A stretch of DNA of 64,000 nt from an uncultured Actinomycetota bacterium (GTDB lineage Bacteria; Actinomycetota; Actinomycetes; Mycobacteriales; CADCTP01): contig CAWKIV010000006.1 in the NCBI GenBank assembly GCA_963849885.1, positions 5,051 to 69,050 of the forward strand. Reading direction: 5' to 3'. Every line of letters begins with the position of its first letter. Positions within the stretch are counted from its first letter, which is position 1. Made by a program: the position numbers. This document shows, piece by piece, positions 16,401-19,400 of this stretch.

Positions 16401-19400
16401 TGGCGAGCCTCTACGCAGAGAGCTCTCTGTACTGGAACGCCACCGGCTACGGGGAAGACCCCGACGTCGACCCGGACCGCTTCGAGCACTTCGGCATGAC
16501 GACGGTCGAAGCAATGGCGAGCGGCTGCGTCCCACTGTCGTACGCCCGCGCCGGTCAGCCTGAAGTCATCGAGGACGGCTGGTCGGGGATCCTCTGGGAG
16601 ACCCTCGACGACATGGCGAAGGGAACGTTGGCACTGATCGACAGACCGACAAGGCGGGCCAGGATGGCCGCAGCCGCGATCGAACGCAGCCAGAGATTCA
16701 CCTACCCACAGTTCAGCAGCACGTTTCAACGGCTGCTGGCCGAGACCTTCTCACCCGGCGCCTGAACAAGCCATGACATCGTCGAGAGCCCTCGTCACCG
16801 GAGCGTCCGGATTCCTCGGGCGGCACCTGGCCCAGACGCTCCAGGCCAGGTACGACGTGGTTGACAGAATCGACATCAGGGCACCGGACGACGGTTGCTC
16901 TGGTGAGGTCCATGTCGCCGATCTGCGTGACATCCTGCCTGGACTCGACCGGTACGACGCCGTCTTCCACCTTGCCGCCTCAGTGGGAGGGCGAGCCGGC
17001 ATCGAGAGGGGACCACTCGGCGTCGCCGGCAACCTCGCCACCGACCTGGCCTTCTTCGAATTCGCCGCTCGTACGCGTCCCGCTCATGCCGCGTACCTGT
17101 CCTCCTCTGCCGTCTATCCCGTTGAAGCCGCCTCGCAAAGCGCGCCGGACGACGGCGACCCGCGGCACGAGGAGAGCAGCGTGCAGCCGCTGGCGGCCAA
17201 CTTCGGCCGGCCGGACGGGACGTACGGCTGGGTGAAACTGACCGGAGAGCACTTGGCCCAGGTCGTGCGGGACCGGTTCGACGTACCCATCGTGTGCTAT
17301 CGCCCCTTCACCGTTTATGGGCCTCATCAAGGCCACGACTACCCGGTGACGGCCATTGCCGCAAGAGCCCTCTCCAAAGAGGACCCACTCATGCTTTGGG
17401 GCTCTGGTCGACAAGTACGAGACTTCATCTACATCGACGACGCCGTCGCAGCTATCGCTGCCACCTACCAACAGGTCTCAGCTCCGCGGTTGAACGTCTG
17501 CACCGGGATAGGCACCGAATTCATGAGCATCGCGAGGATCGCTGCTGACATGGTCGGTTACCAGCCGAGCCTCTTTGGCGACCCCAGCAAACCCACCGGC
17601 GTGGAGCGACGTGTCGGTTCGCCTCTCCGCCTGAACACATGGTTCCGGGCGAAGACCACATTAAGAGATGGAGTAGGATCGGTCCTCGAATGGCTCTCCA
17701 ATTCGAGCAACGACGGGAAGCGGCCGTGTATCGGAACGACTCCGAACGACGGAGCAAGATCGTCCTGGAAGTAGACAGCCCCCGCCCGGATCGGCGGCGG
17801 CGGTCTGTCGTCGTCTAGTGTCGCGTGAACGATGATCTTTGACCGCCGGCCGAGCCGCGGGCGAAACTGTCTCGGCGTGGTCTGCGGTGGGCGTTGGAAG
17901 GGATCGTGTGCCAGCACCTTGGTGCCGTTCGTCCGATGCTGCCTCTCTCTGAGAACCCGCAGCCGAGCAACGTGGGCCGCGCCAAGCTCCGTTCAGGGCT
18001 GCACGGTCCCGTTAGGGCTGGAACAGTTTCCAGTGCCCCTCGGAGCCGACCTGGGCGGCGCCGTCGACCACCCTGATGGCGGTGTCATCGTCGATCGCGT
18101 ACGTCGGCGCAGGAATCCGTGCCGCCCACGTCTCTGCGTTGGCCAAGGAAGCGTCGGGGTGGTCCGGGTGCTCCAGGTGCGGGATCACCGCGAAGTCGAC
18201 GAGTCCTGCTCCCTGTCCCGTGACCAGGATTCTGTCGACGTCACCCTGGGGCGTGGTGAAGACGATGTCCTCGGACTTCAGCGGTCCATCGTTGCCGCGG
18301 GGCGGTTCGACGTAGGTCTCGACGAAGGTGGAGGCAGCAGCGATGCTCCCGGCGCTCACCTCCACGTAGACCGCCTCGGAGCGCAGCGTCGGCAGGAGAC
18401 CGGTCAAACCGGAGCGCCGCATCCAGTTGGCGAGAAACAGGGGGTCGCCGCCCCATACCAGCAGTGCGTCGGCGTCCCGGACCGTTGGCACCCAAGCAGC
18501 CTCCTCGATGCTCGGCAGCACCGACAGCTCCAGGACCCCCAACGACTTCCAACCCAGTTCACACAACGGCAAGGGACCCTTGCCGCAGATCGCCCGCCAC
18601 GCCATGACGGGCCCGCCGGGGAAGGGGTAGATGGCGGTGGGGATGAAGAGGGCGTTGGACTCGGCGATCGGTTTGTCCAGCAGGTCAACCAGCGCGTCGT
18701 GGATGCTGCTGTTCTTGATCCCGGCCGAGGTGAGGAGAGCTCTCATGTTTCTACCTTCCTGAGTGCAATCTCGTGATGCCTGAATTGCCTACTGCGTGGC
18801 ACTCACTGCGCCCCGAACTATTGAGCAACATGACGGGCGCGACACCGGCTGAGGGCTGAGGCCTCTGGCAGCCGCGCCGTGCCGGGCGGGCTCCGCCGTG
18901 GCAGAACCCGCCCGGCCTGGCCGAGGGGCGTGTCTCCCCATCGGGTGGATGCGGACGGCGTCCAGACGTCGTCCGGCAAGGCGAGGAGGAGTCCGATACC
19001 GTCGTTGTATCGGCGACGACGAGAACGCCGCCGGTCGGCGTCTGGACGTCGGCCCGCGCCGCCAGCGGGTTGGGAGACACGCCCTAGACCTCGCCGCACG
19101 GCCCCTGGGTTGCGAACGGCAGGCTCGGGTACCCCGAGACGTCGGCGGAGTAGAGGGACCCGTCGGCTGCCGCCCTCAGCACCGCGAGCGTCGGGATCCG
19201 GAACAGGTTCTCGAGCTGTCCGTTGCTCTTCTGCCCGACGGAGCGCACCTCGTAGAAGATCGCGCCTGTGGTGGGCGTCGAGGTCACCGGCTGCTCGCCG
19301 GCCGGGGCGGTCCCGCCCATCAGCATGCGGGACAGCGCCGCGTTGGTGATGTCGATGAGCGGGTAGTGCGCGACGTTGACCGGCCCGTACTGGTCCAGCG

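What the first reader, a model, noticed from the sequence alone, without database searches (positions are those of the whole stretch)
18925..19084. ~160-bp imperfect palindromic element starting exactly at a TAG stop codon, with a second (half) copy doing the same
The element has inverted termini (GGGCGTGTCTCCC...GGGAGACACGCCC), two ~75-nt arms that align imperfectly, and a small central hairpin. Its right end abuts the stop of the M14 carboxypeptidase (minus strand: ...GAG GTC TAG|GGCGTGTCTCCC). A half-copy at 46741-46821 (~85-90% identical by eye to one arm) begins right after the TAG of the TRIC-family gene (...CGC GCC TAG|GGCGTGTCTCTC, once the IS is removed). Two copies with the same 'TAG-GGCGTGTCTC' junction suggest a dispersed REP/MITE-like family. 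It may act as a post-gene terminator or mRNA stabiliser, or it may target CTAG.
Basis: seen in the sequence. Interest (0 to 1): 0.6.

Follow-up and report, generated by a model that had tools for sequence, protein, structure and literature searches.

The report
Stop-codon-seeking palindromic MITE family
The 160-bp palindrome is one copy of a small, previously undescribed mobile element of soil actinobacteria that inserts into the TA of CTAG sites, and its end sequences rebuild the stop codon it lands in, so it is a new example of a known kind of selfish DNA and not a dedicated gene terminator.

Summary
Window 18926-19084 is a 159-bp hairpin-forming element with exact 13-nt terminal inverted repeats, and it abuts the TAG of an M14 peptidase gene. 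A decayed full-length copy lies at 46740-46895. Scans found 60 copies at 44 unique sites in Frankiaceae and other Actinomycetota MAGs and in soil metagenomes. Flanks are C-TA|GGGCG...CGCCC|TA-G. The rebuilt target is CTAG in 21 of 23 sites with both TAs intact. A near-identical M14 locus lacks the element (empty site). This is a TA-duplicating MITE. An IS630/Tc1-type transposase is the likeliest mobiliser, but no partner was found. Because the element starts with G, TA+G restores TAG at both ends. 23 of 44 sites abut a gene stop, and several split TAATG or TAGTG stop/start overlaps in operons. About 38% of tolerated CTAGs in these genomes are stop codons, so target choice plus purifying selection explains the junction. 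Two features remain unexplained. The hairpin folds better on one strand in 43 of 43 copies. Between co-directional genes the element's orientation is biased 16:2. A terminator role is not supported. It is a new member of a known kind, of moderate interest.

The parts
18926..19084 (+). MITE copy 1, 159 bp, family 'forward' strand on the window + strand. Whole-length imperfect palindrome.
   Evidence: nhmmer 129 bits forward against 41 bits reverse. 83% identical to L097.
18926..18938 (+). Left terminal inverted repeat, GGGCGTGTCTCCC.
   Evidence: Helix 1 of the consensus structure.
19072..19084 (+). Right terminal inverted repeat, GGGAGACACGCCC. Read outward it carries a Shine-Dalgarno-like GGGAG.
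19085..19086 (.). Flanking TA (the target dinucleotide). Together with the element's terminal base it forms the TAG stop of the M14 gene on the minus strand (19084-19086). The TA on the other side of this copy is lost: CCGAG|GGGCG.
   Evidence: Empty-site comparison.
19084..20109 (-). M14 zinc carboxypeptidase gene (341 aa from MRATL...) whose stop codon is the insertion site.
   Evidence: Pfam PF00246. Translation. 100% identical database protein P0001.
18876..18921 (-). Pre-existing terminator-like GC-rich hairpin of the M14 gene, now displaced 159 bp downstream by the MITE.
   Evidence: Inverted repeat I3. Present 10 nt after the stop in the MITE-less loci L162 and L163.
18012..18746 (-). 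Downstream co-directional gene (Peptidase_S51). Copy 1 therefore sits in a tandem context with its reverse strand in the mRNA sense.
46740..46895 (+). MITE copy 2, full length but decayed. The left arm 46740-46817 is conserved; the right arm and right TIR (GGGGGGTCACATACCCC) are degenerate. TA at 46738-46739 and 46896-46897.
45084..45752 (+). TRIC/Gly_transporter gene. Its TAG (45750-45752) was the target of copy 2 before the IS split them.
   Evidence: Pfam PF03458. Sequence.
45753..46736 (+). Decayed 984-bp IS with a frameshifted DDE_Tnp_1 (IS4/IS5-type) transposase and TIR ACGAGTAAGTCC. It is inserted into the CTAG formed at the junction of the gene stop and the MITE, and is flanked by CTAG on both sides.

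Best explanation
The element is a non-autonomous transposable element (a MITE) of about 160 bp. It has 13-18-bp terminal inverted repeats and inserts into the TA of YTAR sites, overwhelmingly CTAG, duplicating the TA. That is the behaviour of IS630/Tc1-mariner-type DDE transposases, so such a transposase supplied in trans is the likeliest mobiliser.

The element begins with G and ends with C, so every insertion recreates C-TA-G at both ends. Read inward from either side, TA+G is a TAG stop. Read outward, the end is TTGGGAGACACGCCC-TA, which has a Shine-Dalgarno-like GGGAG 10-11 nt before whatever follows. In a genome of about 72% G+C, CTAG is rare, and a large share of the CTAGs that tolerate an insertion are stop codons, including stop/start overlaps such as TAATG or TAGTG and convergent CTAG overlaps.

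Insertions there leave the upstream stop and the downstream start intact, so they survive. That is why copies 'start exactly at a stop codon'.

Shown here: the anatomy, family membership, target, an empty site, and the gene junctions. Inferred: the transposase type, the tolerance argument, and any effect at the RNA level.
For: - Family and dispersal. There are 60 copies, 52 of them full length, at 44 unique sites next to unrelated genes in Actinomycetota and Frankiaceae MAGs and in soil and rhizosphere metagenomes.
- Flanks. The left dinucleotide is TA in 30 of 43 sites and the right one in 35 of 44. The base before is C in 35 of 43, and the base after is G in 34 of 44.
- Target. It is reconstructed as CTAG in 21 sites, TTAC in 1 and CTAC in 1. 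The first base of the element is G in 44 of 44 copies. The non-CTAG sites fit a 2-bp duplication but not a 4-bp one.
- Tandem copies. Two adjacent copies in L155 share a single TA.
- Empty site. L162 (M14 99% identical) reads GAGGTT TAG TCGGCAGGCTGGGCGGG..., and L163 has a TGA stop. Both lack the element, and the same downstream hairpin follows.
- Gene junctions. By codon-position GC, 23 of 44 sites abut a gene stop, 4 of them on both sides. Pfam confirms intact genes: M14 and TRIC; PYNP and ANT(2''); CobU/CobS, IspF, M24/zf-CGNR, MDMPI/HTH_3 and arginase; YjbR|dcd, hutU|amidohydrolase, CysS|SpoU, |adk and PYNP|cupin.
- Background. 23 of 61 non-coding-body CTAGs (38%) are stop codons, against 7.7% for TA in general.
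- Precedent. IS630 is documented to prefer TA within CTAG (Tenzen & Ohtsubo 1991, cited in PMC2170065).
Against: - No autonomous partner with matching inverted repeats was found in any DNA fetched or in the plasmid collection.
- CTAG is also the target of actinobacterial IS5-group and IS481 elements. A DDE_Tnp_1 IS in this very window sits in a CTAG. The transposase family is therefore not established.
- The window copy has TA on one side only.
- The sequence alone cannot separate a TA duplication from an element that carries one TA and inserts 3' of a TA.
- The hairpin shows strand-specific G·U pairing (forward strand more stable in 43 of 43 copies; 192 G·U against 11 A·C cells). There is also a 16:2 orientation bias between co-directional genes. 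Simple cut-and-paste transposition predicts neither.
- The gene caller used for the background estimate is crude.
Confidence: 0.8

Rival explanations
1. It is a REPIN/REP-like or IS200/IS605-like element moved as single-stranded DNA by a HUH (RAYT-type) transposase. The functional form would be the folded forward strand, and it would insert next to a YTA motif without a true target duplication.
For: - The forward strand folds better in 43 of 43 copies, by a mean of 27.5 kcal/mol.
- G·U/G·T wobble pairs outnumber A·C 192 to 11 cells, and 28 to 8 columns. UG<->GU flips keep pairing on one strand only.
- GTAG-tagged REPs are known to supply TAG stops to flanking ORFs (PMC3733652).
- The window copy has the same number of TAs as its empty site.
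Against: - Perfect inverted repeats run to the very termini.
- TA and C/G are symmetric on both sides.
- The target is the palindromic CTAG.
- The size is 160 bp, against 20-40 bp for REP units.
- No RAYT or TnpA gene was seen.
- The orientation bias (16 of 18) is stronger than the modest gene-strand bias I assume for actinobacteria from general knowledge (not measured here), which would be the expectation if the orientation followed replication direction.
Confidence: 0.08
2. It is primarily a host-selected structured RNA or terminator placed after genes (a 3'-end hairpin that terminates transcription or stabilises mRNA), and not selfish DNA.
For: - The structure is strongly conserved: 96.3% of cells are paired, 24 of 53 pairs show compensatory changes, and the covariation score is 0.286 against 0.126 in shuffles and about 0.05 in slid controls.
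- It always lies at or near gene 3' ends and almost never between divergent genes (3 of 32 sites with both flanks called).
Against: - There is no Rfam match and no U-tract or promoter.
- The M14 gene had its own hairpin before the insertion.
- Copies lie inside operons immediately upstream of adk, dcd, rlmB-like and hut genes, which need read-through.
- It occurs in both orientations relative to the abutting gene (11 left, 16 right).
- Private (singleton) stem changes are near parity, about 11 G·U to 6 A·C (my count from the table). This suggests resident copies drift.
- The TA/CTAG flanks, the tandem copies and the empty site show mobility.
Confidence: 0.07
3. The two window copies are a chance resemblance or part of a segmental duplication.
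For: There are only two copies in the 64-kb window. The 13-mer with 2 mismatches or fewer is not enriched on its own (7 found, 8.3 expected).
Against: - The flanks of the two copies are unrelated.
- 58 further copies with unrelated flanks occur elsewhere.
- Fold z = -8.7.
Confidence: 0.01

Closest known systems
IS630/Tc1-mariner-derived bacterial MITEs (for example RUP of Streptococcus pneumoniae, and Correia/NEMIS-type TA-flanked elements)
   Same: Small size (under 200 bp), no coding capacity, terminal inverted repeats, TA at both ends, many dispersed copies, and a transcript that folds as one long stem-loop (PMC2229807). IS630 itself prefers the TA within CTAG.
   Different: This family is about 72% G+C, whereas the classical examples are A+T-rich. 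Its host is uncultured Actinomycetota or Frankiaceae. No cognate IS has been identified. The whole-length hairpin is maintained with compensatory changes and strand-specific wobble pairs.
ERIC/IRU elements of enterobacteria
   Same: Whole-length imperfect palindromes of about 127 bp, TA-flanked, co-transcribed with neighbouring genes. From my own knowledge (De Gregorio et al. 2005, not re-read here), they have orientation-dependent effects on mRNA.
   Different: There is no sequence similarity, and the phylum and base composition differ. The stop-codon and stop/start-overlap targeting seen here is not, to my knowledge, a described feature of ERIC.
GTAG-tagged REP / REPIN elements
   Same: Extragenic palindromes whose TAG-containing termini often provide the stop codon of flanking ORFs (PMC3733652). 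The hairpin is conserved.
   Different: REP units are 20-40 bp, have a GTAG or CGTC tag at one end, and are linked to RAYT transposases without a TA duplication. This element is 160 bp, has long terminal repeats, and has symmetric C-TA / TA-G flanks.
MIRUs of mycobacteria
   Same: Actinobacterial repeats that sit in operon junctions. From my own knowledge of Supply et al. 1997, their ends overlap the stop and start codons of the flanking genes. They are summarised as MITE-like in PMC3184786.
   Different: MIRUs are 40-100-bp direct tandem repeats that contain small ORFs. They are not palindromic hairpins with terminal inverted repeats.

Membership tests
MITE (non-autonomous DDE-transposon derivative) | Terminal inverted repeats at the extreme ends | tested here: met
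   Exact 13-nt repeats in the window copy. An 18-bp terminal helix is conserved in 43 copies, with 97% of cells paired.
MITE (non-autonomous DDE-transposon derivative) | Small size and no coding capacity | tested here: met
   Copies are 158-172 bp, with two 217-219-bp variants. Every copy is bounded by inward-facing TAGs. No protein-family search was run on the element itself.
MITE (non-autonomous DDE-transposon derivative) | Multiple dispersed copies at non-homologous sites | tested here: met
   44 unique flank pairs, next to unrelated Pfam-verified genes.
MITE (non-autonomous DDE-transposon derivative) | Target-site duplication, and filled versus empty sites | tested here: inconclusive
   TA lies on both sides in 23 of 44 sites and on at least one side in nearly all. 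Tandem copies share one TA. One empty site was found, but in that filled copy the second TA is missing, so the duplication is not directly shown.
IS630/Tc1-mariner-mobilised element | 2-bp TA duplication, with a preference for CTAG as in IS630 | tested here: met
   CTAG in 21 of 23 reconstructed targets. The TTAC, CTAC and TTAA sites fit 2 bp and not 4 bp. The IS630 preference is per the Tenzen & Ohtsubo 1991 reference in PMC2170065.
IS630/Tc1-mariner-mobilised element | An autonomous IS630-family element with matching terminal repeats in the same genomes | tested here: not met
   There are no extra TIR matches outside MITE copies in the window or in the family loci, about 373 kb in all, and no plasmid hit. 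Whole host genomes could not be searched.
REP / REPIN (RAYT-mobilised) | 20-40-bp palindromic unit with a GTAG or CGTC tag, RAYT gene association, and no TSD | tested here: not met
   The unit is 160 bp and the flanks are CTAG, not GTAG. RAYT association was not testable.
Intrinsic terminator | GC-rich hairpin followed by a U-tract at a transcript 3' end | tested here: not met
   No terminator-like site was found in the element. Copies lie upstream of operon genes that need read-through. No 3'-end data are available.
Rfam RNA families | Match to a curated covariance model | tested here: not met
   No gathering-score hit in the window. Only chance-level hits in 18700-19300.
Integron attC site | RYYYAAC...GTTRRRY core sites, cassette arrays, and an adjacent integrase | tested here: not met
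   The termini are GGGCGTG...CACGCCC. The contexts are ordinary chromosomal operons and convergent gene pairs.

The most novel reading that the evidence does not exclude
The element may be more than a tolerated parasite. Its termini and hairpin could be adapted to operon junctions.

- TA+G rebuilds the upstream stop codon.
- C+TA followed by ATG or GTG keeps the downstream start codon.
- The outward GGGAG supplies a ribosome-binding site.
- The full-length hairpin brings the stop and start codons, 160 nt apart in sequence, back to the base of one stem. A ribosome terminating at the TAG would melt the stem, expose the SD and start, and so preserve translational coupling.

The strand-asymmetric G·U pairing and the 16:2 orientation bias would then reflect selection for the weaker-folding strand in the mRNA, so that RNA polymerase and ribosomes can pass.
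Probability: 0.2. Interest if true: 0.65.

Novelty: new member of a known kind. Interest (0 to 1): 0.4.

Why it matters
It gives a simple mechanistic reason why a repeat can appear to target stop codons. A TA/CTAG-seeking element whose first base is G restores TAG wherever it lands, and in high-G+C genomes stop codons are a large fraction of the usable CTAGs.

For annotators of actinobacterial MAGs, the family explains contig breaks and chimeric flanks at these repeats. It also explains spurious ORFs across them, and genes whose stop codon and downstream start codon are separated by 160 bp of hairpin.

Each insertion also creates two new CTAG sites. That accounts for the tandem copies and for the unrelated IS that landed on copy 2.

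If the orientation bias and one-strand folding reflect selection, the family would be a natural system for studying how operons tolerate a very stable RNA hairpin between cistrons.

Tried and rejected
1. The first genome contigs pattern (GGCGTGTCTCNCN{15,35}GTCCAG) was too loose. Of its 119 hits, 112 were chance matches in unrelated phyla and only 7 loci were real.
2. Rfam at gathering and E-value thresholds gave nothing relevant.
3. A distant-mode search of the plasmid collection gave no match.
4. A search for an autonomous partner through extra TIR matches in all fetched DNA found none.
5. A search for empty sites among the metagenome loci, by joining flanks, gave only artefactual overlaps. 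The empty site came instead from homologues of the M14 protein.
6. Exact-protein look-ups of the M14 product failed three times, although a 100% identical protein is in the database. The epimerase look-up only returned a 6.4-kb contig of the same genome that ends 10 bp past the MITE's right end.
7. A 4-bp CTAG duplication (IS5-like) and a 6-bp NCTAGN duplication (IS481-like) were considered and judged less likely. The element's first and last bases stay G and C when the outer target bases are not C and G.
8. Integron attC, IS110 bridge-RNA and IS200/IS605 PATE readings were considered and set aside on anatomy.
9. A literature search found no description of this family.
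Full report
**1. The observation**

Window 18926-19084 is a 159-bp element with exact 13-nt inverted termini, GGGCGTGTCTCCC and GGGAGACACGCCC. As a single strand it folds into one long hairpin. The + strand gives -116.2 kcal/mol (z = -8.7; 0 of 200 shuffles as good). The - strand gives -93.7 kcal/mol (z = -6.3).

On the minus strand the sequence reads ...GAG GTC TAG|GGCGTGTCTCCC. The ORF ending there has a Peptidase_M14 domain.

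The second copy begins at 46740. A 984-bp IS (45753-46736; TIR ACGAGTAAGTCC; frameshifted DDE_Tnp_1 transposase; CTAG on both sides) separates it from the TRIC/Gly_transporter gene. With the IS removed, the junction is CGC GCC TAG|GGCGTGTCTCTC.

Copy 2 is not a half copy. It aligns over its full length (46740-46895, 74% identity). Its left arm is well kept, its right arm and right repeat are degenerate, and TA is present on both sides.

**2. A family, not a local duplication**

My first public scan used too loose a pattern and mostly returned chance hits. BLAST and nhmmer of the element against the fetched loci still picked out true relatives in uncultured Actinomycetota and Frankiaceae MAGs.

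A stricter pattern that contained no flank sequence returned 41 soil and rhizosphere metagenome contigs. An nhmmer profile over everything gave these counts:

| Measure | Count |
|---|---|
| Non-overlapping copies | 60 |
| Full-length copies | 52 |
| Unique insertion sites | 44 |

Some contigs carry two or three copies. In L155 two copies lie in tandem and share one TA.

There is no Rfam match, no match in the plasmid collection, and no description in the papers I could search.

**3. Target and mobility**

| Flank feature | Result |
|---|---|
| Left dinucleotide is TA | 30/43 (CA in 9) |
| Right dinucleotide is TA | 35/44 |
| Base before the left TA is C | 35/43 |
| Base after the right TA is G | 34/44 |
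| First base of the element is G | 44/44 |
| Last base of the element is C | 40/44 |

Where both TAs are intact, the reconstructed target is CTAG in 21 sites, TTAC in 1 and CTAC in 1. The L097/L127 site adds a TTAA. Because the element's end bases stay G and C whatever the outer target bases are, these non-CTAG sites fit a 2-bp TA duplication and do not fit a 4-bp one.

An empty site was recovered. Both relatives below lack the element, and in all three loci the same GC-rich hairpin follows.

| Locus | M14 identity | Sequence at the stop codon |
|---|---|---|
| L162 | 99% | ...GAGGTT TAG TCGGCAGGCT GGGCGGGTTCTGCCACGGCGGAGCCCGCCC |
| L163 | 94% | TGA stop |
| Window | - | GAGGTC TA[GGGCG...159 nt...CGCCC]C TCGGCCAGGCC GGGCGGGTTCTGCC... 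|

So the element was inserted at the TA of the stop codon, between the gene and its pre-existing terminator-like hairpin.

In this particular copy the distal TA is missing. The duplication itself is therefore inferred from the family and not shown at this locus.

TA duplication with a preference for CTAG is the documented behaviour of IS630 (Tenzen & Ohtsubo 1991, cited in PMC2170065). TA-flanked bacterial MITEs of under 200 bp are a known class (PMC2229807).

No autonomous partner with matching repeats was present in the DNA I hold. Actinobacterial IS5-group and IS481 elements also use CTAG. The transposase family therefore remains an inference.

**4. Why copies start at stop codons**

The element starts with G, so the left TA plus G reads TAG. 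By symmetry the same holds on the other strand at the right end.

A test based on codon-position G+C found that 23 of 44 sites have a real-looking gene ending in the junction TAG: 11 at the left end, 16 at the right end, and 4 at both. Pfam confirmed that these genes are genuine and that their domains run to the C-terminus:

- M14 and TRIC
- Thymidine phosphorylase and ANT(2'')
- CobU and CobS, convergent, with two tandem copies between them
- IspF, M24 peptidase with a zf-CGNR regulator, MDMPI_N with an HTH_3 regulator, and arginase

The two-sided cases correspond to convergent genes that overlapped in CTAG before the insertion.

At eight or more sites the downstream gene's start codon lies 2-3 nt beyond the element, so the target was a stop/start overlap or abutment: TAATG, TAGTG or TAGATG. 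Verified examples are YjbR|dcd, hutU|amidohydrolase, CysS|SpoU methyltransferase, (secY)|adk and thymidine phosphorylase|cupin. In each, the stop and start codons are both preserved. The outward-reading terminus TTGGGAGACACGCCC-TA also places a Shine-Dalgarno-like GGGAG 10-11 nt before the start.

As a null, I classified sites in 373 kb of these genomes with the MITEs masked:

| Site type | At stop codons | Inside coding bodies | Non-coding | Stop share of tolerated sites |
|---|---|---|---|---|
| CTAG | 23 | 28 | 38 | 38% |
| Any TA | 63 | 2323 | 757 | 7.7% |

The observed 52% is therefore roughly what CTAG targeting plus loss of gene-disrupting insertions predicts. No stop-codon sensor is needed.

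REP elements with GTAG termini are likewise reported to supply TAG stops to neighbouring ORFs (PMC3733652).

**5. Structure**

A 43-copy alignment contains at least three subfamilies with different internal sequence but the same hairpin.

| Measure | Observed | Shuffled controls | Slid controls |
|---|---|---|---|
| Cells paired | 96.3% | 86.7% | 36-49% |
| Covariation score | 0.286 | 0.126 | about 0.05 |

Of the 53 pairs, 24 show changes on both sides that keep the pair.

The hairpin is strand-asymmetric. The family's forward strand folds better in 43 of 43 copies, with means of -129 and -101 kcal/mol. G·U pairs outnumber A·C mismatches 192 to 11 cells, and 28 to 8 columns.

Among singleton changes the ratio is only about 11 to 6 (my count from the table). 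The asymmetry therefore resides mainly in states shared by subfamilies, that is, in the lineages that propagate, and not in resident copies.

Two near-identical motifs, GGCAAGGCG and GGCAACGCC, sit on the same strand in both arms.

**6. Orientation**

Flanking gene directions were called from codon-position G+C and expressed in the element's forward frame:

| Context (left gene, right gene) | Sites |
|---|---|
| (-,-) co-directional, mRNA carries the reverse strand | 16 |
| (+,-) convergent | 11 |
| (+,+) co-directional, mRNA carries the forward strand | 2 |
| (-,+) divergent | 3 |

Between co-directional genes the mRNA thus carries the reverse, weaker-folding strand in 16 of 18 cases. By my calculation the two-sided binomial p is about 0.001.

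The window fits this pattern. Copy 1 is of the (-,-) type. Copy 2 is the rare (+,+) type, and its hairpin has decayed.

The bias is stronger than I would expect if orientation merely tracked replication direction. Selection against the more stable hairpin inside transcription units is the simplest reading, but it is an inference. A single-stranded DNA mechanism or palindrome instability is not excluded.

**7. Function**

A dedicated terminator or stabiliser role is not supported, for four reasons:

- The M14 gene had its own hairpin.
- Copies lie upstream of genes such as adk, which must be expressed through them.
- There is no U-tract or promoter-like site.
- Copies occur in both orientations relative to the abutting gene.

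The best-supported view is that this is a selfish MITE whose end sequences make stop codons and operon junctions near-neutral landing sites. Each insertion also creates two new CTAGs. That explains the tandem copies and the unrelated IS that landed on copy 2.

**8. Verdict**

This is a new member of a known kind: a TA-duplicating, hairpin-forming bacterial MITE in an unusual high-G+C host. Two features are unexplained and testable: one-strand folding and the orientation bias. Interest is moderate.

Noticed in passing
window 45753-46736: A decayed 984-bp IS with a frameshifted DDE_Tnp_1 (IS4/IS5/IS982-like) transposase and about 16-bp inverted repeats (ACGAGTAAGTCCTAAC / GTTCGGACTTACTCGT). It is flanked by CTAG on both sides and inserted exactly into the CTAG formed by the TRIC stop codon and MITE copy 2.
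   Followed up: partly
window 18860-20400 compared with L162 1-6026: The M14 gene plus its terminator hairpin is 99% identical in L162 but has different neighbours: Glyoxalase_6 upstream and Cupin_2 downstream, instead of alpha-amylase and Peptidase_S51. Similarity ends right after the hairpin. This suggests a rearrangement, or a duplicated or mobile gene segment.
   Followed up: no
window 18876-18921; L162 3537-3570; L163 3535-3568: The terminator-like hairpin after the M14 gene is conserved in three loci. L163 shows paired substitutions in the two arms (GGGCGGGTCCTGCC...GGCAGGACCCGCCC against GGGCGGGTTCTGCC...GGCGGAGCCCGCCC).
   Followed up: no
window 45708-45746: An 18-nt direct repeat (GCGCCTGGCGGCGGCGCC, twice, 3 nt apart) lies in the last codons of the TRIC-family gene just before its stop, giving a repeated ...RAWRRRP/GAWRRR... 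tail.
   Followed up: no
L155 3077-3398: Two MITE copies from different subfamilies lie in tandem and share a single TA. They fill the gap between the convergent cobU and cobS genes, whose stop codons are the two outer junction TAGs.
   Followed up: yes
L135 / L154 / L129, and L138 / L140: Contigs share one flank of a MITE copy but not the other. L138 carries the same flank at both ends. These are either recombination between copies or metagenome assembly chimeras at the repeat. Several contigs (L161, L163, L159, L053) also end at or within a few tens of bp of a copy or of a known insertion site.
   Followed up: no
L049 767-983 and L120 4-222: These are longer variants (217-219 bp) of the element, with an extra segment of about 57 nt in the apical region. 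They could be intermediates toward a larger parent element.
   Followed up: no
family alignment A3, columns about 64-73 and 115-122: Near-invariant same-strand motifs, GGCAAGGCG (left arm) and GGCAACGCC (right arm), flank the variable apical hairpin. They are direct rather than inverted repeats, so they are not explained by the palindrome and might be a protein-binding site.
   Followed up: no
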